Shown here in pieces: positions 16,038 through 55,058 of a stretch of 64,000 nucleotides of DNA. The notes beneath the pieces are model-generated. The model was not told the DNA's origin, ran no database searches, and was given only the letters and a program-made list of their open reading frames with translations. The translations under genes were made by a program, and so were the position numbers. Each line of letters opens with the position of its first letter. Position 1 is the stretch's first letter. The DNA is from an uncultured Bacilli bacterium. Lineage in GTDB: Bacteria > Bacillota_I > Bacilli_A > RF39 > UBA660. Location of the stretch: positions 359,732-423,731 of the forward strand of contig CAKPKR010000001.1 of NCBI GenBank assembly GCA_934167465.1, written 5' to 3'.

Positions 16038-16108
16038 AAATGTCAATAAATTAGATTTCTATTGATTTAATGTAAATTATGTATTATTATTGTATTAGGA
16101 GGTTAAAT

Positions 16109-17167: not shown

Positions 17168-17212
17168 AGATACATTTGTATCTTTTTTTCATATATTAAT
17201 ATAGGTGATAAT

Positions 17213-17641
17213 ATGTCAATTGTAAAACATACTACAGCAGAACGTGATTTACTAGCAAGATTAATGCGTGCTGAAGCTATAGGAGAAGGTAATTTAGGTA
17301 TGTTGATGGTTGGTAATGTTGGTGTTAACAGGACTATTGCTGATTGTTTAACTTTTAAGGATATTAGAAGTATTGAAGATATGATTTATCAAAATCCAGG
17401 TGGTTTTTCAGGAAAAGATAGTCCTTTATTTTTTAGTAATCCAACAACCGCAGAAAGAAATCTAGCTGATAGAGTACTTAATGGAGAATATTATTTTCCG
17501 GCAACTAATGCTTTATGGTTTTATGCGCCTAAAAAAGGTACTAGTTGTACTGCTACATGGTGGGGTCAGGAACTGTCTGGTAGATATAAAAATCATTGTT
17601 TTTATAAACCTAAGTCTGGTGCATGCAAAGAAGTATATTAA
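17213..17641 (+). CDS. SleB/CwlJ-like cell-wall hydrolase (Hydrolase_2 domain)
   Basis: ERDLLARLMRAEAIGEG...GNVGVNR resembles the SleB catalytic domain. Preceded by a conserved CATATATTAATATAGGTGAT motif. Confidence 0.6.
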   Translation: MSIVKHTTAERDLLARLMRAEAIGEGNLGMLMVGNVGVNRTIADCLTFKDIRSIEDMIYQNPGGFSGKDSPLFFSNPTTAERNLADRVLNGEYYFPATNALWFYAPKKGTSCTATWWGQELSGRYKNHCFYKPKSGACKEVY

Positions 17642-17667
17642 AACAAGAAGAGTTAATGCTTCTTGTT

Positions 17668-18600
17668 TTATATTTTTAATACTTGACCTATACTAAGTGT
17701 ATTAGATGTTAAATTGTTTTTTGCTTTGATTTCATTTACTGTTGTATTAAATTTTTTTGCAATACTATATAAACTGTCACCTTTTTGTACTGTATATGTG
17801 TTTGAACTAGTTATTGGTATTTTTAATATTTGACCAATAGATAATAAGTTAGATGATAGGTTATTTAATTTCATTATTTCGTTTTGGGTTGTATCATATT
17901 TTCTTGCAATGGCGTATAAATTATCACCTTTAACTACTGTATAAGTTGTATAATTATTGGTTGGTTGTGGTGTTATTTTTGCGGGTATTTTTAATACTTG
18001 ACCTACGGATAATAGATTTGAAGATAAGTTGTTTAATTTTTTTATTTCATCTACTGTTGTATTGTATTTATTAGCTATTTTATATAGACTATCTCCGCTT
18101 TTTACAATATATGTAGTTACACCTGATGGAGTAGGGGTTTCTGTTGTCTGTTGCGTAGGCAAAATGAGAATTTGACCTATGCTAAGAGCATTAGAGGTTA
18201 GGTTATTTATGTTTTTTAGTGTGTTTACATTTGTGTTGAATTTTTTAGCTATACTCCATAGGCTATCGCCTTTTTGGACGGTATAATAATTGTTTCCGAC
18301 TTTTTTTCCGGTATATTCGGCTACGGCATTAACTACGGCTTGAGCTAATTTCTCATAGTCATTTTTTAATTGATTTACATCATCAGCAGTACTATCAAGG
18401 AATCCATATTCGACTATTACTGGTTGTGTTTTTCCGGTATTTCTATGGATAAAATAATAATCTTTTGATGTATCTGATGGTAGTCTTCTTTGATATGCTT
18501 TTCTAACATTTTGACCAGCTGCTTCTAAACTGTTTAAAATTAAGTTTGCTAGAGTGTTGTTATTTCTTAATGCGTAAATTACTTCAGCACCATCGGCACC
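17668..18600 (-). CDS. 3' half of a split N-acetylmuramoyl-L-alanine amidase gene: C-terminal part of Amidase_3 plus three LysM repeats. It is interrupted at 18600/18601 by the integrated element
   Basis: The reverse-strand translation reads GADGAEVIYALRNN...VEYGFLDS... then three LysM units. There is no start codon, and an in-frame TGA sits immediately upstream at the element junction. Confidence 0.75.
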   Translation of the reverse strand, partial: GADGAEVIYALRNNNTLANLILNSLEAAGQNVRKAYQRRLPSDTSKDYYFIHRNTGKTQPVIVEYGFLDSTADDVNQLKNDYEKLAQAVVNAVAEYTGKKVGNNYYTVQKGDSLWSIAKKFNTNVNTLKNINNLTSNALSIGQILILPTQQTTETPTPSGVTTYIVKSGDSLYKIANKYNTTVDEIKKLNNLSSNLLSVGQVLKIPAKITPQPTNNYTTYTVVKGDNLYAIARKYDTTQNEIMKLNNLSSNLLSIGQILKIPITSSNTYTVQKGDSLYSIAKKFNTTVNEIKAKNNLTSNTLSIGQVLKI

Positions 18601-18621
18601 TCATGACGGCTCTAGTGGTTA

Positions 18622-18834
18622 TTAATTGTTATTATTAACCTTATTTTGTTGCTCCATAGCTTGCATCATTTGATATTTAGCAAGTATAGCACTTTTATTT
18701 TGTTCATGTTGAAGTTCTGCAGATAGTTTTAATAATTCCTTTGTAAAATCATTGAAGTTCCTACAATTATCAATCATTTTCTTTGTTAACTCTTTCCAGT
18801 TATTATCAATATTTATTGCTTGTTCTACTGTCAT
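18622..18834 (-). CDS. Hypothetical 70-aa coiled-coil protein at the left end of the element. Excisionase or directionality factor is a possibility
   Basis: Small ORF adjacent to attL and in the same orientation as the recombinase. Confidence 0.35.
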   Translation of the reverse strand: MTVEQAINIDNNWKELTKKMIDNCRNFNDFTKELLKLSAELQHEQNKSAILAKYQMMQAMEQQNKVNNNN

Positions 18835-18927
18835 GTCTATCTCTCCTTTCCTTATTTAATTATTATAAAACATTTCAATTATTAAATATTGCCAAATTTC
18901 TGCCATTTTTTTGTAATATTTTCGTAA

Positions 18928-19695
18928 TTATTTTAGTTCAACTTTTTCAAAAGTTTTAGATACAGTATATACATTTTTATTACCTACTTTTTCCTGTCTT
19001 CCTTTATATATTGTCAAATTATTACCTTTTATATTACAATCTAAAGTAATGTAATAATCATTATTTGAATATACTACAACTTTATCATTTCCTATAATAT
19101 TATAATTCCTAATTAGTTTTAATTGTGAATAAGTTCTACCACCATATAATAGTAATAACAAAATTATTAAAAATGGTAATGCTTTAAAATAGTTCTTAAT
19201 TTTAGCTTTTGCCTCATCATTATCTGTGATTTCATCTTTTTTAAAAAAGAAATATGAATAAATAAATTCTATTATGAGCAAGGCTATATTAAATATTGTA
19301 AAGCTAAAACAATCAACAAATTTAAAATAGACAACACTTAATATTATATTATAAAAGATTATTGTTAGTAATTCGCTGATTATTTTTCGATTCACTTTTT
19401 CTTTAAACTTTTTAGCTAAACTATTTGTACTAAATAAAATAGATAAAAATGCAACTAAAAATATAATTGACAAACATAATGAATAAATAAACCCTTGATC
19501 ATTAAATCTATATAATCCAATATTCAAGCCATAATACGAAAAATAATAACTAGCTGTGATATACTCAAAAAATCTTAAGATATATAATATTACAATACAT
19601 AAAGCCGAGCCGCATGCAATAAATAATTTATAATATTTATTAATTACTTCGATTGGTTTTTCAATTAATAATTCATCTTTATTAGTCTTTTTCAT
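18928..19695 (-). CDS. Hypothetical multi-pass membrane protein (255 aa)
   Basis: 5-6 hydrophobic helices and no conserved motifs. Confidence 0.45.
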   Translation of the reverse strand: MKKTNKDELLIEKPIEVINKYYKLFIACGSALCIVILYILRFFEYITASYYFSYYGLNIGLYRFNDQGFIYSLCLSIIFLVAFLSILFSTNSLAKKFKEKVNRKIISELLTIIFYNIILSVVYFKFVDCFSFTIFNIALLIIEFIYSYFFFKKDEITDNDEAKAKIKNYFKALPFLIILLLLLYGGRTYSQLKLIRNYNIIGNDKVVVYSNNDYYITLDCNIKGNNLTIYKGRQEKVGNKNVYTVSKTFEKVELK

Positions 19696-19728
19696 AAAAA
19701 TCCCCCTATCTAAAGTGTTTGCTATATA

Positions 19729-21408
19729 TTATAACATATTTTTATTACAATTAATCTTTTTTCCACATCTTCCGTAAGGATTTCTTATTGGATTCTTATC
19801 AACATATTTAAAAGTATAATCATCAAGTATTTTATATTTAAATTTAATTGTTATATTTCTATCTTCATCTGCTTCTATTCTATCTATTATGGTAAATAAT
19901 AAGTCTCTATTTGGTTTTTCTATATTTAATAATTCTTTTATCTTCTTCGTATAATTTGGTATTTTATTAGCACTATTTTTTCTTTTTAAAATTTCTAGTT
20001 CTATTTCTTCTAATTTATCTTTTAGATTTCCTATTTTTTCTTCATAAGGAGTTACTATCATTTTATATGATTCTAAAGAAATATTTCCATCAATTCTATC
20101 TTGATAAACAGTTTTAATATTAGAAGATAATTTTAAAATTTCTTTTGTTATATCTTTCTTTATTTTATCAAGTGATTTAGTACCTGAATTAGTTCTACTA
20201 ATTATTTCTTCATTTAATTCTTTAATACTTAATCCTTTAAATAAATCAGATAATAATTTGTTTAATTCTTCTAATACTTCTTCTTCAAAATAATCATATG
20301 GAAAGAAATGAGCCTTGCATCTACCTCTAATTGGGTCTCTAGCATATCTATTGCAGTTAATAGTCCAATAGTCATGATTCCTTCTATATATTACACCTAA
20401 TCTATTTCCACACTCTTTGCAATAGATTAATCCCTCTAATAATCTAGTAGGTCTTTTTGTTCTTACATCAACTTTTCGGTTATGATTATCTCTTTTCTTA
20501 TTAATTATTCTAAATGTCTCTTTATCTACTAATGGTTCATGAGTATTTTCAACTATTACCCATAAACTTTGATCTAGTGTTATTTTCTTTTTGGATTTAT
20601 AACTTATGTTAGTTTGAGTATGTTGTACCATATCACCTGTGTACATTCTATTTTCTAATATTTTTTTAACTGAATGTATTGTCCATACATTCTTTTCTTT
20701 TACTCTTGAAGATATTGGTAAATTTTTATAAGCACTTGGTGTTGGTGCTCCTAATTTAGTAAGACGAGTTGCTATTTCAGATATTCCTATATCATTTGCT
20801 TTCCATTCAAACATTTGCTTAACATAAGGTGCTGTATTAGGGTCTATAATTAGATGTCCTTTATCTTCTGGGTCTCTCATATAACCATAGCATGGTTTAC
20901 TACCTATAAATTTACCATCTTTTCTTTTTGCATCTAATACATTTCTTATTTTTAATGAGTTTTGTTTACTATAATAATCATTACAAGCAATAATGAATGT
21001 TGATGAATCATTACTTGCCTGATTTTTCATGCTATCATAGTTTTCAACAATGGATATAAATCTTACTTTATTTTCAGGAAAATAAGTTTCAATATAATAT
21101 CCAGTCATTACATGATCTCGACCTAATCTAGATAGATCTTTTACTACTACAAGATTAATCTTTTTATTTTTTATATCTTCAATCATTCTAATAAATCCAG
21201 GTCTATCAAAATTAGTTCCTGAATAACCATCATCTACATACTCATCTATTAAATTAAATCCATTTTTTAAACAATAGTCTCTTAATATTTCTTTTTGATT
21301 AGTAACACTTTCACTATCTGACTCATATTTTTTATCTTTATCTTCTTGAGAAAGTCTAATATAAATACCTGCATTATAACTTATATTTGTTAAGTAACTA
21401 TAATTCAT
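19729..21408 (-). CDS. Large serine recombinase: resolvase catalytic domain, recombinase domain and zinc ribbon
   Basis: N-terminal YIRLSQED...VVKDLSRLGRD resolvase motifs and a C-terminal Cys cluster (CKECGNR...CNRY...RCKAHF). 559 aa. Confidence 0.85.
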   Translation of the reverse strand: MNYSYLTNISYNAGIYIRLSQEDKDKKYESDSESVTNQKEILRDYCLKNGFNLIDEYVDDGYSGTNFDRPGFIRMIEDIKNKKINLVVVKDLSRLGRDHVMTGYYIETYFPENKVRFISIVENYDSMKNQASNDSSTFIIACNDYYSKQNSLKIRNVLDAKRKDGKFIGSKPCYGYMRDPEDKGHLIIDPNTAPYVKQMFEWKANDIGISEIATRLTKLGAPTPSAYKNLPISSRVKEKNVWTIHSVKKILENRMYTGDMVQHTQTNISYKSKKKITLDQSLWVIVENTHEPLVDKETFRIINKKRDNHNRKVDVRTKRPTRLLEGLIYCKECGNRLGVIYRRNHDYWTINCNRYARDPIRGRCKAHFFPYDYFEEEVLEELNKLLSDLFKGLSIKELNEEIISRTNSGTKSLDKIKKDITKEILKLSSNIKTVYQDRIDGNISLESYKMIVTPYEEKIGNLKDKLEEIELEILKRKNSANKIPNYTKKIKELLNIEKPNRDLLFTIIDRIEADEDRNITIKFKYKILDDYTFKYVDKNPIRNPYGRCGKKINCNKNML

Positions 21409-21700
21409 TTTCTACCTCCTCATTTTATAGCACTTAACTTTCTTCGAGACAAGTGCATCTTACCATGATATATAAAAATAAGCAAATCATTAGAATTATT
21501 TTTCTTCCATAATTTGCTTTAATAAATAATTTAAAACTAATTCTTTAAAAATTTCCTTTTTATCTTCTTTCATACTTAAATTTATGTCTACTATAAAGGG
21601 ATTATTCACTAGAATCACCATCCTTATATGGTTTAAGTAACTCTTCTAGTTCAGCTAATTCTTCATCTGTTAATGGAACTGATTCACATCTTTTACCATT

Positions 21701-22042
21701 CTAAGTTTCTACTCCGTCATAATCAACACCAATAACTGGACCATTAGTACTAATAAAATCATAATTTTCTATTTTGGTTACTGTTACATAATTGTGTATT
21801 GTTTTATTCTTATCAGAATAAGAATTTAAATATCCTTTTAAATATACATTTTTACCCAATAAAAAAAGACCTTTATTATTTTCATAAAGATCTTTATAAA
21901 CTCTTAAACTAGCATAAACTATATTACTATTTTCATTAGGTGAATACTTCTTACAAGTTAGTCCTAATGTAATATATCTATTATTAATTATAATATTATT
22001 TACCTCACCAGATAATAATATTTCATTATAAATCATAAACAA
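21701..22042 (-). CDS. OB-fold SSB-like protein. An in-frame TAG is followed by a 33-codon acidic tail
   Basis: Beta-rich 113 aa resembling SSB-type OB folds. Reading through the TAG would add ...PLTDEELAELEELLKPYKDGDSSE. Confidence 0.35.
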   Translation of the reverse strand: MFMIYNEILLSGEVNNIIINNRYITLGLTCKKYSPNENSNIVYASLRVYKDLYENNKGLFLLGKNVYLKGYLNSYSDKNKTIHNYVTVTKIENYDFISTNGPVIGVDYDGVET

Positions 22043-22148
22043 AACCCCCTGTTTAATTATATATATAATTTTTTATATATTAATTATCTTTTAATTTATT
22101 TATTATACATGCATATCTATTCATATAATTAATGCACAATACTGCATA

Positions 22149-22547
22149 TTATCCTGAATCATCTTGCATATTATTCACATATATTCTTCTTTGAATTAAA
22201 TCATCATTTTTAACTCTTTCAACATTAATATATCCTTTTTCTTTTAATCTCTTTAAAGAATAATTAATTGTTCTTATTTTAACAAAAGATAAATTAGATA
22301 ATATTTTATTAGTAGCAAAACAATAACCATTTAATCTACTAAGATTATAAATACTACCAAACAAAAAACAGTCTGATTTAGTCAAACTGTTATCTTTCAT
22401 TAATTCTCTTGGAATAATAATAAAATCTTTTTTCAAATATGATACTCTCCTTTCTATAAAATCCCAAAAACACCAATTTTTAATTGATATTTTTTTATCA
22501 GGATAAGACGATGGTACTGCAACACCAATTTTCCTAGGTAAAATCAA
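22149..22547 (-). CDS. Winged-helix DNA-binding protein, replication-initiator or DnaD-like
   Basis: C-terminal wHTH (LSNLSFVKIRTINYSLKRLKEKGYI). Lies next to iteron-like repeats. Confidence 0.4.
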   Translation of the reverse strand: MILPRKIGVAVPSSYPDKKISIKNWCFWDFIERRVSYLKKDFIIIPRELMKDNSLTKSDCFLFGSIYNLSRLNGYCFATNKILSNLSFVKIRTINYSLKRLKEKGYINVERVKNDDLIQRRIYVNNMQDDSG

Positions 22548-22718
22548 TGTTTATTATGGTACCAAACTTATTTTGCACTTGCAAAATTTATCCCATATAG
22601 GTAATTTATCTTTAATAAGACATCTAAAAATAGGCAAATAAAAAATCCCAATATATAAAATATTGAGATTTTGTTGGGATATTAACAAAAAGTAATACCA
22701 TCTTTTATTTAAACTATT

Positions 22719-22830
22719 TACCTACTATAGCAAATATATCAGAAATATTTTTATTATGCAAGTTTCATTTACTTTCCGTTTTTTTTCCTTTTTTTGTCAT
22801 ATTATTAACCTATTATAGCAACTTTATCAT
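22719..22830. repeat. Two imperfect 24-bp direct repeats, TTACCTACTATAGCAAATATATCA and TAACCTATTATAGCAACTTTATCA, 88 bp apart. Iteron-like
   Basis: 20 of 24 positions identical. They sit in an ORF-free AT-rich stretch beside the wHTH gene. Confidence 0.35.
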
Positions 22831-22999
22831 AAAAAAATTTATCTGTCCATTCGTTTTAAATGGTACTTTAACCATTACTTTAAAAGTAATTTATACTTCA
22901 CTTTATCTTGTTTTGACCTTTAAATTTAAAGAAATCTAACAATAGAAAAAGAACAAAAATATGAATCTTTTTTGAAAAATCACTAAAATTTTTTTAAAT

Positions 23000-23392
23000 T
23001 TATTTAATATCAATATTCCATAATCCTAATTTACCATTAATTACTTTGTCAGATTCTATCTTCTTAACATTCTTCAATTTCCATGCATAACCGGTTCTAA
23101 ATTTTGAACCATATGCAATATTTTTTTCATTGATAATTTGTTTATTCAATTCATCATCCAATTCTAAACAATCTTCTATTTCAACTTCTGCAACTATTCT
23201 TTTTGATGGGTATTTTAAATTTAAGTCTTTAAACCTATTCATTTCCTTTTTATCTACACCAGCACCAGCATGTATTAATATTTTACCCCTATAATTAGTT
23301 TTCCATGATCTGAATTCGTATTTTTTTATTCCTTCAGCCACTAAAGTTGCCCATGGTTGTTTCAATGTTAATATCTTCATATTTATCACCAA
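23000..23392 (-). CDS. ASCH-domain (PUA-like) protein
   Basis: LTLKQPWATLVAEGIKKYEFRSW... matches the ASCH fold signature. Confidence 0.6.
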   Translation of the reverse strand: MVINMKILTLKQPWATLVAEGIKKYEFRSWKTNYRGKILIHAGAGVDKKEMNRFKDLNLKYPSKRIVAEVEIEDCLELDDELNKQIINEKNIAYGSKFRTGYAWKLKNVKKIESDKVINGKLGLWNIDIK

Positions 23393-23469
23393 TATTATTT
23401 TATCACATTTATTAACCTAATTATTAAGAATTTTTGTTTAATATGTTATAATATATATGGAGGTATAGT

Positions 23470-24465
23470 ATGGTATTAGATAAAGTAATGTTTGATAAAT
23501 TACATTCATTTTCAGAAAACATTTGTCAAAATTTTAATATAAAAGAACCAAAAGATAGAAAATCACTTATTAAGTATCTTGATTCATTACAAAAAGGTAT
23601 TGATATTGGAGAAATAAACTCTTCATTTATTGGATTAATATTATATGATTTTGTTTCATCAGAAGAAACTCGTGATAGACATACAACTGCAAGAATATTT
23701 GAAGATATCTTTGGAGAATTAGTTGGTGAAAAAGCTACAGACACTTCATCAAGAGTTAATCCTCAAGTTCCAGATTATATTAAAGAATATGATAGTTTAT
23801 GTAATAATGTAGATTGGACGATTAGTCATGATTTAGCAGGTAATAAAAGGGAAAAGGCTGATCACAAAATTGATGAATATGAATTATCTATAAAAACATT
23901 AAAGGGTAAATTATATAATAATGATGGCAAAATCATTAATAGTGATTTTAATGATGAAATCAATATAGGTTCATTATCACATAGAGCCTTATTTATAGGA
24001 CTAACTGATAAAGCACTTAGCGATAGAAAAGGCGGTTTAGGTTCTCCAAGACAAACAATACCATTGCTTGAATCAATAAAAGAAAATAATAAATTTGATG
24101 AATTTAAAAGCAGAATAAACAATTATGTTAAATATGTATATAGTGATGACATTTTAATTGTTTATAAATGTGGGTATAAAATGAAAATAACTTTAATACC
24201 TGCAGAATCATTCGTTACCGCAATAACAAAAGCTCTTGATGACGAAAATGGTGGAATAAATTCATTTACAAAAATTTGGTACAGATGGGAAAATAATAAT
24301 TTAAGAATAAGATATACAGCATTAATGGACATGATAAGAAAGTTAAATTTAAATTATTATGACACTATATTAAATTTAGAAAATGTATTTGAAAACAAAG
24401 AATTTATAGATAATATGATTATCTTAGAAAAACTAATAGATCAAAAAATAGAAGATTTAATTTAA
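23470..24465 (+). CDS. Hypothetical 331-aa protein convergent with the C5-methyltransferase, overlapping it by 9 bp at the 3' ends. Putative type II restriction endonuclease
   Basis: Gene arrangement only. No confident nuclease motif could be read. Confidence 0.3.
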   Translation: MVLDKVMFDKLHSFSENICQNFNIKEPKDRKSLIKYLDSLQKGIDIGEINSSFIGLILYDFVSSEETRDRHTTARIFEDIFGELVGEKATDTSSRVNPQVPDYIKEYDSLCNNVDWTISHDLAGNKREKADHKIDEYELSIKTLKGKLYNNDGKIINSDFNDEINIGSLSHRALFIGLTDKALSDRKGGLGSPRQTIPLLESIKENNKFDEFKSRINNYVKYVYSDDILIVYKCGYKMKITLIPAESFVTAITKALDDENGGINSFTKIWYRWENNNLRIRYTALMDMIRKLNLNYYDTILNLENVFENKEFIDNMIILEKLIDQKIEDLI

Positions 24466-25590
24466 AAAATCTTCTATTTTTATTGGAAAAATTTTAGCTA
24501 TATTATATGCCATTAATACTGGAACAGCATTTCCTATCTGTCTATAACATGCAGAGGTACTTCCTAAAAATAAAAATGTATCTGGAAAAGATTGGATTCT
24601 TGCAACCTCTCTAACACTCATTCTTCTGTTATATTCAGGATGCGGAATAATTAAAGGCCCTCCAGTTCCACTACCTCTTCCCATAATAGTTGGAGAATGT
24701 TTATCCCAATATGTCGGTCTATTTCCAACCATATGTGATTTCTTTTGATTTAATTTACATTTAGACGAAGTATGATTTAATATTTCACAACCATCAACAT
24801 TGGTTTCTTCAGGTAATCCATAAATTGTATCTCTTAATGTTTGATATTGATATTTAATATTTGAATCAAAATAATCATTAATATTTAACTTTTTCTTATT
24901 ACATAACTTATTAAACATATCTGTAACAACTAAGTATGTATTTTGAGGCTGTTTAATATTACTATTCTTTGAATGAGTTTCTTTTACCAATAATCTCTTT
25001 TTAACTTTTTTTAAATCAACTGGTTTTTCCATGATAGGCATTTTAATTTTTTGAGCATAGTCATTTCTTACTCCAAATATTATTACTCTTTCACGATTTT
25101 GTGGAACTCCATAATTCAATGCATTTAATACATTATAATAAACAGTATATCCTTCACCAATAGATTCAATATCTTTGATAATCATTTCTAAGATTTTTCC
25201 TTTTTCCATGTTTTCTAATCCTTTAACATTTTCTAGTAATATAAATTTAGGATTTTTAATTTTAATCATTTTTAAAACTTGCAAATACAAGAAATTTCTT
25301 TCATCTTCCATACTTCTATTGATATTAGCTATTGAAAAACCTTGACAAGGGAATCCACCTATAACTATATCAGCATCTGGTATTTCTTTTTTTAATTTTT
25401 TTTCATCTTGATTTAAATATTCTAATATATCTCCTCTAACAACCTTGTGTTTATTAAATCTATTAAAATTTTCTTCATATGTATCAACTGCATAATCATC
25501 AAAATCATTTGCCCATACGATTTTGTGACCAGCTAAAGAAAATCCTAAGTCTAAACCACCAGCGCCAGAAAACATTGATATTACTTTCAT
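24457..25590 (-). CDS. dcm: DNA (cytosine-5)-methyltransferase
   Basis: Motif I (FSGAGGLDLGF), motif IV (GGFPCQGFSIAN), motif VI (ENVKGL) and C-terminal motifs IX/X (QIGNAVPV). Confidence 0.85.
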   Translation of the reverse strand: MKVISMFSGAGGLDLGFSLAGHKIVWANDFDDYAVDTYEENFNRFNKHKVVRGDILEYLNQDEKKLKKEIPDADIVIGGFPCQGFSIANINRSMEDERNFLYLQVLKMIKIKNPKFILLENVKGLENMEKGKILEMIIKDIESIGEGYTVYYNVLNALNYGVPQNRERVIIFGVRNDYAQKIKMPIMEKPVDLKKVKKRLLVKETHSKNSNIKQPQNTYLVVTDMFNKLCNKKKLNINDYFDSNIKYQYQTLRDTIYGLPEETNVDGCEILNHTSSKCKLNQKKSHMVGNRPTYWDKHSPTIMGRGSGTGGPLIIPHPEYNRRMSVREVARIQSFPDTFLFLGSTSACYRQIGNAVPVLMAYNIAKIFPIKIEDFLN

Positions 25591-25621
25591 TATTTATCAC
25601 TCCTAACTGATTGTTGCCTAA

Positions 25622-27844
25622 TTATTTTAAATCTATTTCTTCTTCGGCTTTATTATACAATTCAATTTTATTCTCAACATCAACTTTTGTAACAAGCCAT
25701 TTTCTTAGAGAACACATTCTTACAAAATCATCAATTCTATTTATTCCATTGATCTCTTTTAATGTAATTACAATTCCAAACTTTATTCCTTCACCATCTC
25801 TTTTTTCTAATCGCTCTTTAGTCTTAATGCTTATTCCCCATAATTCATTTGAATATTTCTTTTTAGGTCTGGAACCATCTTTTAATATTTCGATTATATG
25901 TTTTACATTATCCCATTTTCTGTAATTTTTTCGTGCATTTCCTTCATACATATAGTGGCCTTCTTCGGTTTGATAGTTATTGTTTATTGTTTTTATATGA
26001 CCTCTATCATCAATTCTACCAAATGATAAATCCAGCTCAGTATTAGTATAATCTACACCTTGATTTCTTGAACAATTTGGAAAATAGCATAATGTTGCCT
26101 TAGAGATAAATGGATATTTATCATTATGTAATGGAACAGGAATATCATATGTATATGTATCATATTTTTCAGAAATTCCTTCAATAACAAATTTAATTTC
26201 ATCATCTTTTGAATTAATAATATCTTCTATTCTCTTTGGAACGACACCATACCCTAATAATGGTGCCTGTTTTTGATTAATAGTTTCTTTCCAATTTGTG
26301 GCAGAATCAATTATTAATGCTTTGGCAACTTCTCTACTTAAGCCTAAAATATCAATCAAATATGACATTTTTCTTGAAATCCATGGAGCAGCAAATGATG
26401 TTCCTGCTAATAGGCATTCTCCACAAGAATTACAAGCCTTAATATAATCGTTTTTGTCTCCACCATAATAGCAAATATCAGGTTTATTAAAAAACGACAA
26501 TACTAATCCTTTTCTAGAATATGAAGCTGATTTTCCTTTTGAATCAACTGAATTAACAACCAATGCATTTATCGAATCTGCAGGAGCGCCAATCATCTCA
26601 ACACTTTCTTTTTGCTTATTAGTCCCTGCAATTACAAATATAACATTATTTTCATATTGAATTTTATCTAAAATTGCCGCTTCGGGTGATATAAAGTTTG
26701 GATTGATTTCTAGTGCCGAACCAAGCGATAAATTCCATACTCTAATATCCTTATTGGTTTTTACTATTTCTTTTATGTGTCTTAATATCGCAAACGAACT
26801 CATTTGCTTAGAAAGTGCAACACCAAAATGTCTAACTTTAAATCTACCACATCCATCATCTAGTTCAGGATTAATATTTGGACCATCTACTATAATTGAA
26901 GATACTGCTGTACCATGATCCATATCCTGTGAGGATGTTTCTATATCATCTGAAATCATTTTATGATACTCAACCCAATTAGAAAAATAGCATCTAGTAT
27001 CAAATAATGTATCAATTACTCCAATTGTTGGTTCATTGGTTGGATTTGGTAATTTAGGTAATGTATCATCATCTAATGTAATAAAATCATCTTTTGATAG
27101 TTCTGAGATATCACTTAAAGTCATGGCAATTAGATATGGTGCCTTCATTTTTAATAATTCCAATTGGTCTGGTGTTAATAATACCGTAGAATCTTCCTCG
27201 ATAATTCTTTGAGTCAAAATATCTATACCCAATTTATCCATGATTTCTTTTATATTATCATCAGTCTTATATAAAGTAACTAATGCATTGTCACTAATAA
27301 TATCACTATTATCTGGCAAATCAAACTTTTCTGCATAATATGCATCTACAATTATTTGATTGAAAGCTGATTTAGAAAGTCCAATGCTTGTCAAATATTT
27401 AGATAATGCATCTATATTATCTAATTTTTTTTGTGAAACTACACCAGACATTTTTTCTTTTACACACTTAATAACTAAATCTAATTTACTAATAGATGTA
27501 TTTAATGAATCCAAATGTATATAATGTGTAATAATATGTTTTGGATTTTTTTTATCAGTAAATTTTGCACCTACTATTGTGTTATTTGTAACCTTACCAG
27601 ATTCATGGAGAATTGCAGATATTCTATTACTCTTTGCAATTACATCGATATAATACACACTAATTAGTGCACCTTTAACAACAGTTTGTGTACTCCAAAA
27701 ACCATATAATTTTTTTAGTTGAGATAATAAAGTTTCTAAATGCTCGACTAGCACAATTGAACTACCTGGAAGTGTAGCAGGTCCCGGAGTTGAATTATTA
27801 GATCTTTGATGAAATTGTCCTTTTAATTGCAATAAATTATTCAT
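25622..27844 (-). CDS. Subtilisin-like S8 serine peptidase (740 aa) with unknown N- and C-terminal extensions. Candidate IetS-like component
   Basis: The D/H/S triad is readable: GVIDTLFD, DHGTAVSSII, GTSFAAPWIS. It begins 1 nt after the stop of the upstream AAA ATPase gene and is co-directional with it, with a 3-nt gap. Confidence 0.7.
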   Translation of the reverse strand: MNNLLQLKGQFHQRSNNSTPGPATLPGSSIVLVEHLETLLSQLKKLYGFWSTQTVVKGALISVYYIDVIAKSNRISAILHESGKVTNNTIVGAKFTDKKNPKHIITHYIHLDSLNTSISKLDLVIKCVKEKMSGVVSQKKLDNIDALSKYLTSIGLSKSAFNQIIVDAYYAEKFDLPDNSDIISDNALVTLYKTDDNIKEIMDKLGIDILTQRIIEEDSTVLLTPDQLELLKMKAPYLIAMTLSDISELSKDDFITLDDDTLPKLPNPTNEPTIGVIDTLFDTRCYFSNWVEYHKMISDDIETSSQDMDHGTAVSSIIVDGPNINPELDDGCGRFKVRHFGVALSKQMSSFAILRHIKEIVKTNKDIRVWNLSLGSALEINPNFISPEAAILDKIQYENNVIFVIAGTNKQKESVEMIGAPADSINALVVNSVDSKGKSASYSRKGLVLSFFNKPDICYYGGDKNDYIKACNSCGECLLAGTSFAAPWISRKMSYLIDILGLSREVAKALIIDSATNWKETINQKQAPLLGYGVVPKRIEDIINSKDDEIKFVIEGISEKYDTYTYDIPVPLHNDKYPFISKATLCYFPNCSRNQGVDYTNTELDLSFGRIDDRGHIKTINNNYQTEEGHYMYEGNARKNYRKWDNVKHIIEILKDGSRPKKKYSNELWGISIKTKERLEKRDGEGIKFGIVITLKEINGINRIDDFVRMCSLRKWLVTKVDVENKIELYNKAEEEIDLK

Positions 27845-27847
27845 ATT

Positions 27848-28900
27848 CTAATCTCTCCATTCTCTAGAAACCTGACTTTTAGAAATCCCAGTAATTATTT
27901 CAATTTCTCTAACAGTAAATCCTAGTTTTTGTAAATCTTTTAACTGCAATTTTTTATCTTTATTTATTTTCCTATATAATGTTTTTAAATAATCTAATTC
28001 ACAATCAGGATTACTAAAAGCAATGGATGTTTTAATTAAATTTCTCAAATCTCCAGGGTATGGAATTGGTTCCATTAAATTAATTATCTTTTTAAATAGT
28101 TTTATATTTCTTCCAGCATTTTTAAATTTTAAAAGCATTTCATTTAAGATATACTCTGAAACTTCCAATAAATCTTCTCTTGAATAATTGTTAAAATTAA
28201 TTATAGAATCAAATCTTCTTATTAATGCCTTATCAAATGAAGAAAATAAATTAGTTGTAGCAATAAATAAAATATTATCATTTAATTGATCTAATTCTTT
28301 TAAAATCGTTGAAGTTGCTCTTCCCATTTCTCTAATATCATTATCATTCATTCTGTCTAATGCTATAGCATCTATTTCATCAAAAAGTATTATCACCTTT
28401 TCAGGATGAGGCATCTTTTTTATTTCGTAGAACAATTCCGTAATATTCTTAGCAGTTTGTCCTAATTTGCTATCAACAACCATACTAAAATCCACAGAAA
28501 AAATATCCCTTTCAAGTATCCTTGATAATTGCCTTACAGTCTCTGTCTTGCCAGTGCCCGGAGCACCTTCAAATAAAAATTTATTTACCCCTACATTGTG
28601 TTTAACAGCATGAATTAATCCGATAATATCATCTTTTATGCTTTCAGGTAATGGAAATGGTTCTTTACTTGGAGATAGTTTTTTAAAAAAAACTAAGTCA
28701 GATTTTTCAATTTGGGGTACAAATGTATTTACATCAGATAGAAGTGCAAGTATATATTCTGATAATTCAACATCACCAGTTTTATCAAAGTATTTTGCAA
28801 TTTCATATGCTTCATTTCTAAAATATTCATCATTATTTTCTGTATGATATTTAATTAAATTTAATATATTCTTCTTCTTCATATTATCACCTATATTCAT
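27848..28900 (-). CDS. AAA+ ATPase with a C-terminal HTH. Candidate IetA-like component
   Basis: Walker A (GAPGTGKTE), Walker B (ILFDEID), arginine finger (IRRFD) and a C-terminal HTH (GFTVREIEIITGISKSQVSR). AGGTGAT ribosome-binding site before the ATG. Confidence 0.7.
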   Translation of the reverse strand: MNIGDNMKKKNILNLIKYHTENNDEYFRNEAYEIAKYFDKTGDVELSEYILALLSDVNTFVPQIEKSDLVFFKKLSPSKEPFPLPESIKDDIIGLIHAVKHNVGVNKFLFEGAPGTGKTETVRQLSRILERDIFSVDFSMVVDSKLGQTAKNITELFYEIKKMPHPEKVIILFDEIDAIALDRMNDNDIREMGRATSTILKELDQLNDNILFIATTNLFSSFDKALIRRFDSIINFNNYSREDLLEVSEYILNEMLLKFKNAGRNIKLFKKIINLMEPIPYPGDLRNLIKTSIAFSNPDCELDYLKTLYRKINKDKKLQLKDLQKLGFTVREIEIITGISKSQVSREWRD

Positions 28901-28907
28901 TATATAT

Positions 28908-28940
28908 TATTTGGGACACTTTTTCAATATTTGGGACATA
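28908..28940 (-). promoter_or_regulatory. Two direct repeats, TGTCCCAAATA x2 on the gene strand, 21 bp apart, 22-52 nt upstream of the AAA ATPase start. Putative operator
   Basis: Exact 10-11 bp direct repeats in the 160-bp stretch between the element's right end and the operon start. Confidence 0.4.
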
Positions 28941-29060
28941 CTTTTTATTTTTTATTTTTGATAAAATGTAAAGTAAATAAAAAGATAACTTATTTTTTAT
29001 ATAAATCGTCTTTAAAATCTTATTTTTCTCGAAGAAAGTTAATTTACCACTAGGGTTAAC

Positions 29061-29327
29061 ACCACCTCCTGCATTTATGTGATTTGATATTACAATTACA
29101 TTGTCGCTATTTCCATATGAATTTAAAATTCTATTAACCCTCTCAGTTGGATCAATAGTTTCATCCTCTGATCTAACTAAAGTAACTGGAATACCTAATT
29201 TCATAAATTGATCGTACATATATTTTGAGATTTTTAAAGTTAAATCTTTTTCAATTATTCCATTTCCACTCGCACCAGGATCTTCTCCTCCATGACCAGC
29301 ATCTATTACAATTTTATAGTTATTCAT
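29061..29327 (-). CDS. 5' half of the split N-acetylmuramoyl-L-alanine amidase gene: the first 89 aa of the Amidase_3 domain
   Basis: AGGAGG ribosome-binding site then ATG. MNNYKIVIDAGHGGEDPGA...NHINAGGG. After 29061 the frame runs on into element sequence, so the 28887-29456 ORF in the track is chimeric. Confidence 0.75.
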
Positions 29328-29403
29328 ACATATTCCTCCTAGAATTATTTTATGATATATATAGGGATGTGTTATTAAATTAGGATATTTTTGATTAATA
29401 AAA

Positions 29404-29443
29404 AAACAAATTGTATGTATAGTACAATTTGAATTCTTTTGAA
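29404..29443 (-). terminator. Rho-independent terminator (CAAATTGTA-N7-TACAATTTG followed by T7) for the upstream minus-strand gene
   Basis: 9-bp perfect inverted repeat plus T-run on the minus strand. Confidence 0.6.
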
Positions 29444-29445
29444 AA

Positions 29446-30636: not shown

Positions 30637-30722
30637 TATTATTGTATCTTAAATATAAAAATGTTTCAATATTTATATTTAATAATAAAAGATACTTTAC
30701 AAAGTATCTTAATTATAATAGA

Positions 30723-31316: not shown

Positions 31317-31392
31317 AAAAGTAACCTCCTTATCATAATATATGGAGATAATACTTTAATGTTTAAACGATATAATTAAAAAAAGATAAAAA

Positions 31393-32040: not shown

Positions 32041-32172
32041 CTCTTTGTTTTTTTGACGAAAACATTTATGATTTTATCACTATTATGATTATATGTCAAA
32101 TTAATACAAGTTATGCAATTATTATATTGAAAAATAATAATTAATGTGCTATAATTTTTTTGTTGGAACGAT

Positions 32173-47181: not shown

Positions 47182-47631
47182 ATGAAGAAATTAATTAGAA
47201 GTAGAATATTTTTGGTAATAATATGTGGTATAGTATTTACAAGTATTGGAGTTTATGCAGCAACAGCATATAAAGCAAGTGAAATATCATATACCCCAAG
47301 TGGAGGAACCGAAACAAACGTAGAAAATGCATTGAATGATATATATAATATTAAAAAGTTAGGTAATGCTACAGCAGGTGATATAGCAAGTGGTAAGACA
47401 GCGGTAGTTCAAGGAAAATTAATAACAGGAAGTTTACAAAAAAACACAGTTGGAAATTTTAGTGCTGCTATTTCGATTCAAGCATATGATTATTATGATA
47501 GTAGAAGTTCTACATTAAATTTTCAATATAAAAATGGATCAGTTACGTTAACAAATGCTGATTATTTGTCATCTAAGGATGATAGAAGATATTCTTTTAG
47601 AATAACAGGTGTATCAATTAGTGGATTATAG
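47182..47631 (+). CDS. Secreted 149-aa protein. Paralog A of the family: a shared N-terminal region of about 55 aa and a divergent C-terminus
   Basis: Signal/anchor MKKLIRSRIFLVIICGIVFTSIGVYAATAYKAS.. and a NVENALNDIYN motif. Paralog at 54228. Confidence 0.55.
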   Translation: MKKLIRSRIFLVIICGIVFTSIGVYAATAYKASEISYTPSGGTETNVENALNDIYNIKKLGNATAGDIASGKTAVVQGKLITGSLQKNTVGNFSAAISIQAYDYYDSRSSTLNFQYKNGSVTLTNADYLSSKDDRRYSFRITGVSISGL

Positions 47632-54227: not shown

Positions 54228-55058
54228 ATGAAAAATATAATAAAAAGTAGAGTATTTTTAATACTAATATGTGGTTTAATATTTACTGGGTTAGGGGTCT
54301 ATGCAGCAACCACATATAAAGCAAGTGATGTAGTATATAATGCCACTGATGGAACAAGTATGAATGTAAATGATGCTTTGAATGAATTATATAATAAAAG
54401 TGGAAATAAAGGATACTACTATTATTACGAAAATGGAACAGCAATATATTATAATCCAGTAAGTGGAACAAAATGTAATGCTAGTGAAGCTGTAAGTACA
54501 ACAGGAACAAAAACAGGATGTATGAAATGGTATACATTTAACGATGATAGTGAATCATCAACAGTTAATATGATATTGGATCATAATACAACTTCTTCGA
54601 TTGAATGGAGTTCAAGCAAAAAAAATGTTGCATATGAAGAAAGTTACGTAAAACCAGAAGTTGATAAGTTGATAAGTGTTTCTAATTGGAAAGATATCCC
54701 TAGATTAATAAGTGCGGTTGAAGTAGCCAAAATAACTGGCAAGACAGATTTTAATAGTTTAGATGATACAACATGGTATTATTTAGATACTAATATTCAA
54801 ACCCAAATATCAAAATCTAAAGGAACAAGCAAGTATGCCTGGTTGTTTGACTATACAAATGGATGCACAAGTTATGGATGTAATATAGAGGATGTAAATA
54901 CATATGGGTATTGGACGTCAACAACATATGTAACGACTTCATCTGATAACTATGTGTGGAATGTAAACTGGAATGATCTTTTGTATAGCCATAATGCTAA
55001 CTATATTGGTAATGGTATTCGTCCAGTAATAACAATTTCAAAAACAAAACTTTCTTAA
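54228..55058 (+). CDS. Secreted 276-aa protein. Paralog B of the family at 47182
   Basis: N-terminal MKNIIKSRVFLILICGLIFTGLGVYAATTYKASDVVY...NVNDALNELYN is shared with paralog A. The C-terminus is unrelated, Y/W/T-rich. Confidence 0.55.
   Translation: MKNIIKSRVFLILICGLIFTGLGVYAATTYKASDVVYNATDGTSMNVNDALNELYNKSGNKGYYYYYENGTAIYYNPVSGTKCNASEAVSTTGTKTGCMKWYTFNDDSESSTVNMILDHNTTSSIEWSSSKKNVAYEESYVKPEVDKLISVSNWKDIPRLISAVEVAKITGKTDFNSLDDTTWYYLDTNIQTQISKSKGTSKYAWLFDYTNGCTSYGCNIEDVNTYGYWTSTTYVTTSSDNYVWNVNWNDLLYSHNANYIGNGIRPVITISKTKLS

What the first reader, a model, noticed from the sequence alone, without database searches (positions are those of the whole stretch)
17668..29327. A 10.5 kb serine-recombinase element precisely splits a cell-wall amidase gene, suggesting a skin-like sporulation intervening element
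The Amidase_3 catalytic domain is split. Its first 89 aa are encoded at 29327-29061 on the minus strand. The remainder, plus three LysM repeats, is encoded at 18600-17668 on the minus strand.

The two halves meet in-frame (...SNHINAGGG | ADGAEVIYAL...). The chromosomal arms CATCGGCACC and ACCACCTCCTGC share an ACC/CACC core, as expected for a 2-bp serine-recombinase crossover. The element ends carry imperfect inverted ACCACTAG half-sites. A 559-aa large serine recombinase is encoded 1.1 kb inside the left end.

In spore formers, elements of this kind are excised by large serine recombinases in the mother cell to rebuild a functional gene. Known examples are skin in sigK, SPbeta in spsM, and elements in spoVFB, spoVR and gerE. 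A late mother-cell lytic amidase of the CwlC type would be a plausible host gene of this kind.

The flanks are rich in sporulation or exosporium-type genes: SleB-like, BclA-like, CotY-like and CtpB-like.

Alternatively, it is simply a cryptic prophage or defence island that inactivated the amidase.
Basis: partly seen in the sequence, partly recalled or inferred. Interest (0 to 1): 0.85.

Follow-up and report, generated by a model that had tools for sequence, protein, structure and literature searches.

The report
Mobile defence island splitting sporulation amidase
A 10.5 kb mobile island carrying anti-phage genes sits inside a cell-wall amidase gene that looks like a late sporulation gene, and related islands occupy the same codon in about 45% of related gut species, so this is probably a new example of a gene that is cut apart and rebuilt, although rebuilding during sporulation is not yet shown.

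Summary
The split is real. A 10,466-bp element separates an Amidase_3 plus 4×LysM gene into an 88-codon head and a 309-codon tail.

An empty allele from the same species (99.3-99.6% identical flanks) fixes the boundaries to a 6-bp core, GAGGTG. The reconstructed attP is symmetric: ACCACTAG-N11-GG-N11-CTAGTGGT.

The element is not a prophage. It carries a large serine recombinase (LSR), a conserved 37-41-aa ORF just upstream of it (a candidate directionality factor), the IetAS defence pair and a type II restriction-modification pair.

Related LSR islands with different defence cargo sit at the same GG in 9 of 29 related species. A second LSR lineage splits the same gene at the His codon of DAGHGG in 4 more. 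The islands move horizontally and vary within the window's species: empty, this island, or a different island.

The amidase has no signal peptide. It has a conserved AC-N16-CATAnnnTA promoter of the sigma-K type. Across this clade that motif marks almost only CwlJ-like, CotZ-like, collagen-like and LysM genes.

A skin/gin-like role is therefore plausible. Sporulation-timed excision is unproven, and no sporulation promoter was found inside the element.

The parts
29346..29372 (-). Sigma-K-type promoter of the amidase gene: AC-N16-CATAAAATA, ending 18 nt before the ATG
   Evidence: CATAnnnTA is conserved at this position in most of about 19 orthologous upstream regions; three deviate at the TA. 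Consensus taken from PMC3789822.
29063..29327 (-). Amidase_3 head fragment, codons 1-88. It includes the DAGHGG, Glu26 and His83 metal-site motifs. It has no signal peptide.
29063..29068 (-). 6-bp core copy GAGGTG at the head junction. The inferred crossover is the GG at 29065-29066.
   Evidence: The alignments to empty allele L047 overlap by exactly these 6 nt.
29046..29053 (-). Element-side half-site CTAGTGGT, 11 nt from the central GG
27848..28900 (-). IetA-like AAA ATPase (defence cargo)
   Evidence: PADLOC IetA E=2.8e-35 and Pfam AAA. A TTGAAA-17-TATAAT promoter lies at 28927-28899.
25622..27844 (-). IetS-like S8 protease (defence cargo)
   Evidence: PADLOC IetS E=4.8e-64 and Pfam Peptidase_S8.
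24457..25590 (-). C5 cytosine DNA methyltransferase (type II)
   Evidence: Pfam DNA_methylase E=3e-83 and PADLOC MTase_II.
23470..24465 (+). 331-aa ORF, convergent with the methylase and overlapping it by 9 nt. Presumed restriction endonuclease. No family match.
   Evidence: The function is inferred from position only.
23000..23392 (-). ASCH-domain protein
   Evidence: Pfam ASCH and phrog_3193.
22149..22400 (-). 83-aa winged-helix protein (HTH_36), similar to the N-terminus of replication initiators. Part of the conserved LSR module.
   Evidence: Conserved in L040, L038 and L043.
21701..22042 (-). 113-aa ORF of the conserved module. In the window it ends at a TAG where L040 has TGG, so it is truncated here.
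21496..21621 (-). Small ORF: 41 aa maximum, 37 aa from the likely GTG start at 21609. It ends 87 nt before the LSR start. Candidate recombination directionality factor.
   Evidence: A positionally conserved 25-46-aa ORF with the motif FKELIxxYLxxxI is present in every class-1 locus where the region upstream of the LSR was available, with LSRs 48-93% identical to the window's.
19729..21408 (-). Large serine recombinase, 559 aa. A sigma-A-like TTGTCT-17-TATAAA promoter lies at 21452-21424.
   Evidence: Pfam Resolvase + Recombinase + Zn_ribbon_recom. phrog_95 integrase. PDB matches to TnpX and SPbeta SprA.
18928..19695 (-). 255-aa ORF, hydrophobic by inspection (presumed membrane protein), no family match
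   Evidence: A 40%-identical homologue sits at the same place in L023.
18622..18834 (-). 70-aa ORF next to the tail junction, no family match
18612..18619 (-). Element-side half-site ACCACTAG, 11 nt from the central GG
   Evidence: The identical end AATAACCACTAGAGCCGTCATGAGGT occurs in L035/L037 and L042, and with one mismatch in L040.
18597..18602 (-). 6-bp core copy GAGGTG at the tail junction. The inferred crossover is the GG at 18599-18600.
17668..18596 (-). Amidase tail: the catalytic remainder plus four LysM repeats. It is an open 309-codon frame with no in-frame start.
17213..17641 (+). CwlJ-like Hydrolase_2 gene, convergent with the amidase. It carries the same promoter type, at 17172-17198.

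Best explanation
SHOWN:
- A 10,466-bp non-phage genomic island is integrated by a large serine recombinase (LSR) at the GG that starts the second Gly codon of the H-I-N-A-G-G motif of an Amidase_3-4×LysM gene.
- The host is a very AT-rich (about 25% GC), uncultured gut member of the Bacilli.
- Integration separates the promoter and 88 codons, which hold the three predicted metal ligands, from the 309-codon remainder, which holds the catalytic Glu and the LysM repeats. Neither piece can be an active enzyme.
- The island carries IetAS, a type II methylase with a presumed endonuclease, an ASCH protein and a conserved module: winged-helix protein, 113-aa ORF, small ORF, LSR.
- It belongs to a large, horizontally exchanged family of cargo-variable defence islands that all dock at this one dinucleotide. 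A second LSR lineage docks at the His codon of DAGHGG in the same gene.

INFERRED:
- The amidase is a late mother-cell (sigma-K-type) sporulation enzyme, functionally like CwlC or a LysM-bearing coat hydrolase. It would then be dispensable in the germ line.
- In the sporulating mother cell, the LSR together with a directionality factor would recombine attL × attR. The best candidate for that factor is the small ORF upstream of the LSR.
- This would release a circle and rebuild the 397-aa gene, while the forespore keeps the island. The logic is that of skin, SPbeta and gin.
For: Structure and site:
- The empty allele L047 comes from the same species. Its flanks are 99.63% and 99.28% identical, and the two alignments overlap by exactly the 6-bp core. 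L001 and L041 show the same empty site.
- The reconstructed attP of the window and of L028 are each symmetric about the same GG.
- The rejoined ORF equals the intact homologues in length and motif.

Family:
- 9 class-1 and 4 class-2 interruptions occur among 29 GTDB species loci.
- All five sampled LSR clusters (73-93% identical; P0122, P0129, P0215, P0216, P0231) and the one JGI hit (L042) lie in this gene.
- All 13 tail fragments examined at the class-1 junction are open and full length.

Mother-cell gene:
- There is no signal peptide.
- AC-N16-CATAnnnTA lies 11-28 nt before the start codons of the amidase, CwlJ-like, collagen-like, CotZ-like and 2×LysM genes. These are 5 of the 9 window matches, against 4.06 expected.
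- Over the window plus 47 non-redundant loci, 27 of 28 motif+RBS+ORF hits fall in these five families, 13 of them amidase orthologues.
- The motif equals the published sigma-K consensus, -35 AC and -10 CATA..TA (PMC3789822).
- B. subtilis cwlC is a terminal mother-cell lysis gene (PMC517825).

Spore-former context:
- CotZ Pfam hit at 60.5 bits. YutH and CotZ in related loci. Related uncultured Bacilli orders are predicted to include sporulators (PMC10868615).

Precedent:
- gin uses an LSR plus a 42-aa factor (PMC5595907).
Against: - No sigma-E/K-type promoter is conserved in front of the LSR, the small ORF or any shared element gene.
- LSR genes have sigma-A-like, often extended -10, promoters.
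- The islands are recent horizontal arrivals. LSR identity and host amidase identity are uncorrelated (Spearman -0.11). Intact gene fragments therefore do not prove selection for rebuilding.
- No attP or circular junction was found in IMG/VR or JGI contigs.
- The exact rejoined protein of this strain is not in the 15-billion-protein collection.
- No core spo or sig genes were seen. Sporulation capacity rests on coat-type genes and promoter motifs only.
- The role of the small ORF is a guess based on position and size.
Confidence: 0.55

Rival explanations
1. Tolerated knock-out. The islands are ordinary integrative mobile elements whose LSRs have specialised on an ultra-conserved coding motif because it is present in every host of the clade. 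Loss of a redundant late amidase costs little and is offset by the defence cargo. There is no programmed excision. Empty alleles are simply uninfected strains.
For: - Horizontal spread and within-species turnover.
- Sigma-A-like LSR promoters and no sporulation promoter in the element.
- No circular form found.
- The crossover dinucleotides (GG of a Gly codon, CA of a His codon) cannot change without changing the amino acid, which makes an ideal broad-host attB.
Against: - The gene is retained and intact in all 29 species. Yet 45% of species representatives, and roughly 16 of 21 classifiable contigs of this species, carry an interruption.
- Two LSR lineages only 30-34% identical chose the same gene.
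- No decayed fragment was seen among the 13 tail fragments examined.
- Characterised LSR insertions in mother-cell genes excise during sporulation (PMC4191935, PMC5595907, PMC5025042).
Confidence: 0.33
2. Reversible switch in growing cells, of the 'active lysogeny' or phase-variation type as in Listeria comK. The island excises and re-integrates in vegetative cells and toggles an autolysin, unrelated to sporulation.
For: - The LSR appears constitutively expressed.
- One contig (L055) ends exactly at the core, and two others end about 75 nt inside the element. This is compatible with mixed site states within a sample.
Against: - The amidase has no signal peptide and only a sigma-K-type promoter preceded by terminators.
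- The rejoined allele of this strain was not found.
Confidence: 0.07
3. Degenerate prophage. On this reading the element is a skin-like, vertically inherited phage relic.
For: The LSR matches the phage integrase family phrog_95, and the winged-helix protein resembles the N-terminus of phage replication initiators.
Against: - There are no structural, packaging or lysis genes.
- There is no DNA match in 50,697 phage records, and the best phage LSR is 34% identical.
- There are no IMG/VR hits.
- The phylogenetic pattern is horizontal, not vertical.
Confidence: 0.03
4. Assembly chimera or mis-join.
For: None.
Against: - The same junction ORF occurs on 19 contigs. L049 is 100% identical to the window over 8.4 kb across the tail junction, and L053 and L054 also cross that junction at 100% identity.
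- Homologous junctions occur in dozens of independent assemblies.
Confidence: 0.01

Closest known systems
gin element in gerE of Bacillus cereus ATCC10987 (LSR GirC plus 42-aa factor GirX; PMC5595907)
   Same: It is a small, non-prophage element that splits a mother-cell sporulation gene. It has an LSR and a short core shared by both junctions. A very small unannotated ORF serves (gin) or may serve (here) as the directionality factor.
   Different: The host gene and host clade differ. gin carries three recombinases and no defence systems. Sporulation-timed excision and the GirC/GirX activity were shown experimentally there; nothing has been tested here. The small ORF here lies directly upstream of the LSR.
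skin element in sigK (B. subtilis SpoIVCA; C. difficile CD1231 with its directionality factor; PMC5025042)
   Same: An LSR-mediated precise deletion rebuilds a mother-cell gene. In C. difficile the recombinase is constitutive and the directionality factor gives cell-type specificity. That model would fit the sigma-A-like LSR promoter seen here.
   Different: skin is a phage relic fixed in its species and sits in a regulator gene. The element here is an exchangeable defence island in an enzyme gene, it is polymorphic within the species, and it has no identified sporulation-controlled factor.
SPbeta prophage in spsM (SprA/SprB; PMC4191935, PMC5499854)
   Same: An active mobile element with an LSR sits in a late mother-cell gene. 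Excision serves both element mobility and gene reconstitution.
   Different: SPbeta is a 134-kb functional phage. SprA matches the LSR here only weakly (PDB hit E=4.5e-12).
Regulated gene integrity candidates (TIGER survey, PMC7192596), including Listeria comK, and the yin element in yabG of C. botulinum (PMC10747680)
   Same: A tight integrase clade disrupts the same Pfam domain at the same position in several independent events, crossing species and genus boundaries.
   Different: An amidase target does not appear among the cases named in the abstract or in the text searched (the word 'amidase' occurs nowhere in the paper). Here two LSR lineages use two sites in one gene.
CwlC of B. subtilis (host-gene analogue)
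   Same: An N-terminal Amidase_3 domain with no signal peptide, followed by a C-terminal peptidoglycan-binding repeat region, under a late mother-cell promoter type.
   Different: The C-terminal repeats are LysM, not SPOR. Orthology was not tested. The gene could equally encode a coat-associated hydrolase.
IetAS defence system (cargo)
   Same: An adjacent AAA ATPase and S8 protease pair matches the PADLOC IetA and IetS profiles.
   Different: No functional test was done. The association with an LSR island in a sporulation gene is specific to this family.

Membership tests
Sporulation gene-intervening elements (skin / SPbeta / vfbin / vrin / gin class) | The element interrupts the coding sequence of a host gene without restoring it | tested here: met
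   The head and tail are 10.47 kb apart. There is a TGA directly before the tail and no in-frame start. The Amidase_3 domain is split.
Sporulation gene-intervening elements (skin / SPbeta / vfbin / vrin / gin class) | The host gene is expressed specifically in the sporulating mother cell | tested here: inconclusive
   A conserved AC-N16-CATAnnnTA promoter is shared only with CwlJ-, CotZ-, collagen- and LysM-type genes, and there is no signal peptide. This is strong motif evidence, but there are no expression data.
Sporulation gene-intervening elements (skin / SPbeta / vfbin / vrin / gin class) | The element encodes its own site-specific recombinase near one end | tested here: met
   A 559-aa LSR lies 1.13 kb from the tail junction.
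Sporulation gene-intervening elements (skin / SPbeta / vfbin / vrin / gin class) | Precise excision yields an intact in-frame gene | tested here: met
   Tested in silico only. Joining at the 6-bp core gives a 397-aa ORF that is collinear with the same-species empty alleles L047 and L041.
Sporulation gene-intervening elements (skin / SPbeta / vfbin / vrin / gin class) | Excision is developmentally timed, with the recombinase or directionality factor under sigma-E/K control | not testable with these tools
   Promoter scans found nothing conserved. Expression data or PCR are needed.
Sporulation gene-intervening elements (skin / SPbeta / vfbin / vrin / gin class) | The host forms endospores | tested here: inconclusive
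   Present: CotZ family, CwlJ-like, collagen-like, a CtpB_N-like protease, and YutH in relatives. No spo or sig genes lie in the sequence held. One walk along the contig found none, and a second look-up found no record.
Large serine recombinase integrative elements | Resolvase catalytic domain plus recombinase domain plus zinc-ribbon domain | tested here: met
   Pfam PF00239, PF07508 and PF13408 are all above their cut-offs.
Large serine recombinase integrative elements | A short attP with imperfect inverted half-sites around a non-palindromic central dinucleotide that is shared with attB | tested here: met
   Window: ACCACTAG-N11-GG-N11-CTAGTGGT. L028: 20-nt arms around the same GG. L043: 23/24-nt arms around GG.
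Large serine recombinase integrative elements | A cognate recombination directionality factor | tested here: inconclusive
   A positionally conserved 25-46-aa ORF lies upstream of every class-1 LSR whose upstream region was available. It has no homology to known factors, and no binding prediction was possible.
Prophage or cryptic prophage | Phage structural, packaging or lysis genes, or similarity to known phages | tested here: not met
   The only PHROG hits are the integrase, a replication-initiator-like winged helix and an unknown ASCH family. There is no DNA match in the phage collection and no IMG/VR hit.
IetAS anti-phage system | Adjacent IetA (AAA ATPase) and IetS (S8 protease) genes | tested here: met
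   PADLOC IetA 2.8e-35 and IetS 4.8e-64. The two genes are 3 nt apart.
CwlC (B. subtilis mother-cell lytic amidase) | Amidase_3 without a signal peptide plus C-terminal SPOR repeats | tested here: not met
   The Amidase_3 domain starts at residue 6 and there is no signal peptide, but the C-terminus is 4×LysM, not SPOR. This is analogy, not membership.

The most novel reading that the evidence does not exclude
A late mother-cell amidase gene serves as a germ-line-safe docking bay for anti-phage defence islands across a whole clade of uncultured gut spore-formers.

At least two unrelated LSR lineages have converged on codons whose first two bases cannot change without changing the amino acid: GG of Gly and CA of His. 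Islands with different cargo (IetAS, R-M, AbiE, Gabija-like, AIPR, plasmid-like ParAB) are swapped at the site between near-identical strains. Each island is excised in every mother cell by the LSR plus a roughly 37-aa partner encoded just upstream.

If so, sporulation and defence-island carriage are mechanistically coupled.
Probability: 0.4. Interest if true: 0.75.

Novelty: new member of a known kind. Interest (0 to 1): 0.6.

Why it matters
If excision proves to be sporulation-linked, this adds a new host gene, a cell-wall amidase, to the short list of developmentally rebuilt bacterial genes. It also adds a new and largely uncultured clade related to the wall-less Mycoplasmatota.

It would show that the intervening DNA can be a freely exchanged defence island rather than a phage relic.

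The family offers dozens of natural LSR/attP/attB sets that all recognise one conserved attB, each with a tiny candidate directionality factor. That is useful material for studying or engineering serine-integrase specificity and directionality.

The sigma-K-type promoter set is also a simple marker for late sporulation genes in these uncultured genomes.

Tried and rejected
- Prophage reading: rejected. PHROG, phage-collection DNA and protein searches and an IMG/VR scan were all negative or distant.
- Search for a free attP or circular form: a 21-mer of the element end found only one further integrated copy, L042, in JGI contigs and none in IMG/VR. ENA and Logan assemblies cannot be searched by DNA.
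- Search for a sporulation promoter inside the element: CATAnnnTA and AC-N15-17-CATAnnnTA scans of ten elements gave only scattered, non-conserved hits. One lies inside the window's LSR gene, one 71 nt before the ASCH gene, and one before a 172-aa ORF in L035.
- Host-promoter read-through as the excision trigger: no terminator lies between the head fragment and IetA, and nearly all element genes run in the same direction as the amidase. However, relatives in the opposite orientation (L038, L043) make this explanation non-general.
- Vertical co-divergence of LSR and host: rejected.
- Contig walking for spo genes: one look-up added nothing and one found no record.
- Rfam and repeat scans of the element: nothing.
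- Literature search for an amidase or cwlC target of an intervening element: none found in the library.
- The exact rejoined protein of this strain is not in the protein collection.
- A structure prediction of the LSR with the small ORF was not attempted. The tool folds single chains and refuses fused sequences.

Full report
**1. The observation**

- On the minus strand, 29327..29061 translates to the first 89 residues of an Amidase_3 domain (MNNYKIVIDAGHGG...SNHINAGGG).
- 18600..17668 translates to GADGAEVIYALRNN... followed by LysM repeats and a stop.
- Between the two lie ten ORFs, nine on the same strand.
- Pfam on the rejoined protein gives Amidase_3 (residues 6-181) and four LysM repeats, not three.

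**2. The true junction**

- A search with the rejoined protein found intact proteins: P0001 (97% identical, 397 aa), P0002 (91%) and many more distant ones.
- On the gene strand the head junction reads GCAG-GAGGTG-GTGTTAACCCTAGTGG. The tail junction reads CCGTCAT-GAGGTG-CCGATGG.
- Six bases are therefore shared, at 29063-29068 and 18597-18602.
- The syntenic empty locus L001 reads AATGCAGGAGGTGCCGATGG.
- Contigs that encode a CwlJ-like protein identical to the window's include an empty allele, L047. It aligns to window 13213-18602 at 99.63% and to 29063-32099 at 99.28%. The two alignments overlap by exactly those six bases.
- The element is therefore 10,466 bp and the rejoined gene is 397 aa.
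The in-frame conclusion stands.

**3. attP anatomy and crossover**

- Joining the element ends gives AATAACCACTAGAGCCGTCATGA-GG-TGGTGTTAACCCTAGTGGTAAATT.
- ACCACTAG and CTAGTGGT each lie 11 nt from a central GG.
- In L028, a different species whose LSR is 49% identical and whose arms differ, 20-nt inverted arms flank a 16-nt spacer centred on the same GG.
- In L043 the 23/24-nt arms again centre on GG.
- The inferred crossover is the first two bases of the second Gly codon of NAGG. Those bases cannot change without changing the amino acid.

**4. What the element is**

- It encodes a 559-aa LSR with Resolvase, Recombinase and Zn_ribbon_recom domains. The nearest solved relatives are TnpX and SPbeta SprA.
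- It carries an IetA-like AAA ATPase and an IetS-like S8 protease (PADLOC 2.8e-35 and 4.8e-64), a C5 methyltransferase with a convergent 331-aa ORF, and an ASCH protein.
- It also carries an 83-aa winged-helix protein resembling replication-initiator N-termini, a 113-aa ORF, a 255-aa hydrophobic ORF (presumed membrane protein) and a 70-aa ORF.
- There are no phage structural genes, no DNA match in 50,697 phage records and no IMG/VR hit. The best phage LSR is 34% identical.
- It is a small integrative defence island, not a prophage.
- No RNA family or meaningful internal repeat was found.

**5. The same site is used across a clade**

- A scan of one genome per GTDB species found 29 loci with an orthologue. 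All are MAGs labelled uncultured Bacilli, Tenericutes, Mycoplasmatota or 'Clostridium sp. CAG:433'.
- In nine of them the match starts at about residue 76-88. The DNA diverges from the gene at exactly ...AGGT|G, and where the upstream sequence is long enough an LSR gene (48-62% identical) lies just upstream.
- L028 holds both halves, 6.45 kb apart.
- Five LSR clusters sampled from metagenomes (73-93% identical) and one JGI contig all sit in this gene.
- Their cargo differs: AbiEii; NUDIX; a methylase with an 804-aa protein; and AIPR with a methylase, a MutH-like nuclease, an OLD/TOPRIM ATPase and a UvrD-like helicase (Gabija-like by domain content).
- Two clusters (L038/39, L043/44) occupy the same GG in the opposite orientation.

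**6. A second site in the same gene**

- In L013, L014, L018 and L021, an LSR only 30-34% identical lies directly upstream of an amidase whose match starts at residue 7-13.
- In L014 and L018 the promoter and first ten to eleven codons lie about 10 kb upstream.
- Comparison with intact L010 and L011 places the crossover at the CA of the His codon in D-A-G-H-G-G.
- The L014 element carries ParA, a ParB-like protein, two ABC transporters, a PHP protein and a MazF/PemK-like toxin.
- Together, 13 of 29 species representatives (45%) have this gene interrupted.

**7. The islands are mobile, not relics**

- LSRs 87-94% identical are found in hosts whose amidase catalytic regions are 49-64% identical. 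These are the window, L035, L040 and L042, and they share the element end AATAACCACTAGAGCCGTCATGAGGT (L040 has one mismatch).
- Conversely, L025 and L027 have 92%-identical amidases but 54%-identical LSRs.
- Over 66 pairs the correlation is -0.11, p=0.36.
- Within the window's own species there are three site states among the 23 contigs read:
  - empty: about 4 contigs;
  - window-type island: about 11 contigs;
  - a different island, with a 561-aa LSR, a 30-aa ORF and a rolling-circle Rep: about 5 contigs, one of them with a flank 99.98% identical to the window.
- The exact head-plus-read-through ORF is on 19 contigs and the exact LSR is on 10.

**8. Is the host gene a mother-cell gene?**

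- The protein starts directly with the catalytic domain, so it has no signal peptide.
- Upstream, most of about 19 orthologous regions share little except a box CATAnnnTA 12-20 nt before the ribosome-binding site. Three of them deviate at the TA. In most regions an AC lies 16 nt further up, and in several a terminator hairpin precedes it.
- In the window, CATAnnnTA is under-represented overall (66 matches against 102 expected).
- The full pattern AC-N16-CATAnnnTA gives 9 matches against 4.06 expected. Five of them lie 11-28 nt before the start codons of five genes:
  - the amidase;
  - the convergent CwlJ-like Hydrolase_2 gene;
  - a collagen-repeat protein (the Collagen Pfam match is below its cut-off);
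  - a CotZ-family protein;
  - a 2×LysM protein.
- Housekeeping genes in the window show TATAAT-type boxes instead.
- Over the window plus 47 non-redundant loci, the pattern with spacer 15-17 followed by an RBS and an ORF of at least 50 aa gives 28 hits. Of these, 27 fall in the same five families.
- The pattern equals the sigma-K consensus, -35 AC and -10 CATA..TA. It is distinguished from sigma-E by the -35 element (PMC3789822).
- bclA and sleC are sigma-K genes in C. difficile (same paper). cwlC is a terminal mother-cell lysis gene in B. subtilis (PMC517825).
- This is good indirect evidence that the amidase belongs to a late mother-cell regulon.
- Direct proof that the host sporulates is lacking. 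The evidence is the coat-type genes, YutH and CotZ in relatives, and published predictions that related uncultured Bacilli orders contain sporulators (PMC10868615). I did not establish which GTDB order the window belongs to.

**9. Excision machinery**

- In every class-1 locus where the region upstream of the LSR was available, an ORF of 25-46 aa ends 61-87 nt before the LSR start. This holds for LSRs 48-93% identical to the window's.
- These ORFs share the motif FKELIxxYLxxxI. In the window the ORF is 21496-21621, with a likely GTG start at 21609.
- Gene callers annotated it as a 37-aa gene in L038 and L043 and as a 46-aa gene in L045.
- By position and size it resembles GirX, the 42-aa factor of gin (PMC5595907). 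I propose it as the directionality-factor candidate. This is inference only.
- The LSR genes have sigma-A-like, often TG-extended, -10 boxes.
- No sigma-K/E-like box is conserved before the small ORF, its upstream partners or the LSR.
- A constitutive recombinase with a regulated factor would match skin of C. difficile and SPbeta. Here, however, the regulation is unknown.

**10. Weighing the readings**

- For programmed rebuilding:
  - the host gene is of the mother-cell type;
  - occupancy of a conserved, otherwise intact gene is very high;
  - two LSR lineages have converged on it;
  - all 13 tail fragments examined are open;
  - characterised precedents behave this way.
- Against:
  - the islands are recent arrivals, so intact fragments may only reflect youth;
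  - no sporulation signal was found in the element;
  - no circle was found;
  - the rejoined allele of this strain was not found, although this is also what mother-cell-only excision predicts.
- I put programmed mother-cell excision at about 0.55, a tolerated knock-out at about 0.33, a vegetative reversible switch at about 0.07, and prophage relic or artefact together below 0.05.

**11. Comparison and novelty**

- The closest known system is gin in gerE. skin, SPbeta, vfbin, vrin and yin share the same logic.
- By the TIGER criterion for regulated gene integrity this is a candidate case, and an amidase target does not appear in that paper's text or abstract list.
- No paper in the library reports an amidase or cwlC host gene.
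- I class it as a new member of a known kind, with three unusual features:
  - defence-island cargo;
  - rapid exchange at the site;
  - two sites in one gene.

Noticed in passing
window 47128-47160 and 54174-54206 (+): There are two copies of the cassette TTGACAAAAACGTCT(T)-G9/G10-TATGATAT, each about 25 nt upstream of an ORF (47182..47631, 149 aa; 54228..55058, 276 aa). They hold the only poly-G tracts of 8 or more in the 64 kb, against 0.07 expected. The G tract lies in the spacer between the -35 and -10 boxes. These look like slipped-strand phase-variable promoters.
   Followed up: partly
L014:1-10000 and L018:1-10015; also L013 and L021: A second LSR lineage, 30-34% identical, splits the same amidase gene at the CA of the His codon in DAGHGG. 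The promoter and about 10 codons are left roughly 10 kb upstream. The L014 element carries ParA, a ParB-like protein, two ABC transporters and a MazF-like toxin, so it is plasmid-like.
   Followed up: partly
L046:4456-8243, L050-L052: Strains whose flank is 99.98% identical to the window carry a different island at the same 6-bp core. It has a 561-aa LSR (about 74% nt identity), a 30-aa ORF and a REP_ORF2-G2P rolling-circle replication protein. This suggests cassette replacement at the site and possible replication of the excised circle.
   Followed up: partly
L038/L039:10001-11941; L043/L044: Relatives with 74-75% identical LSRs are inserted at the same GG but in the opposite orientation, so the LSR end abuts the amidase head. 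Their attP arms differ from the window's.
   Followed up: partly
window 21701-21703 (stop of the 113-aa ORF): The window has TAG where the 97%-identical homologue in L040 has TGG. The window copy therefore loses about 35 C-terminal residues that are conserved in L040 and L038. This is a sign of slight decay in the conserved LSR module.
   Followed up: no
L055 (ends at window position 18601); L053 and L054 (end at 18676 and 18673): One independent contig stops exactly at the att core and two stop about 75 nt inside the element. This is the pattern expected where an assembly graph branches because several site states coexist in a sample.
   Followed up: no
window 60021-60051, upstream of the CtpB_N-like S41 protease gene (60052..61245 +): The upstream sequence ATGATATATTAATATAGGTGAT is almost identical to the promoter/RBS regions of the CwlJ-like and 2×LysM genes, but it has G instead of C at the first base of the CATA box. 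It may be a related sporulation promoter.
   Followed up: no
L045:1574-9491: The island in an NCBI MAG (GCA_964018915.1) carries an AIPR protein, a methylase with a MutH-like nuclease, and an OLD/TOPRIM ATPase next to a UvrD-like helicase (Gabija-like). This shows how varied the defence cargo of this island family is.
   Followed up: no
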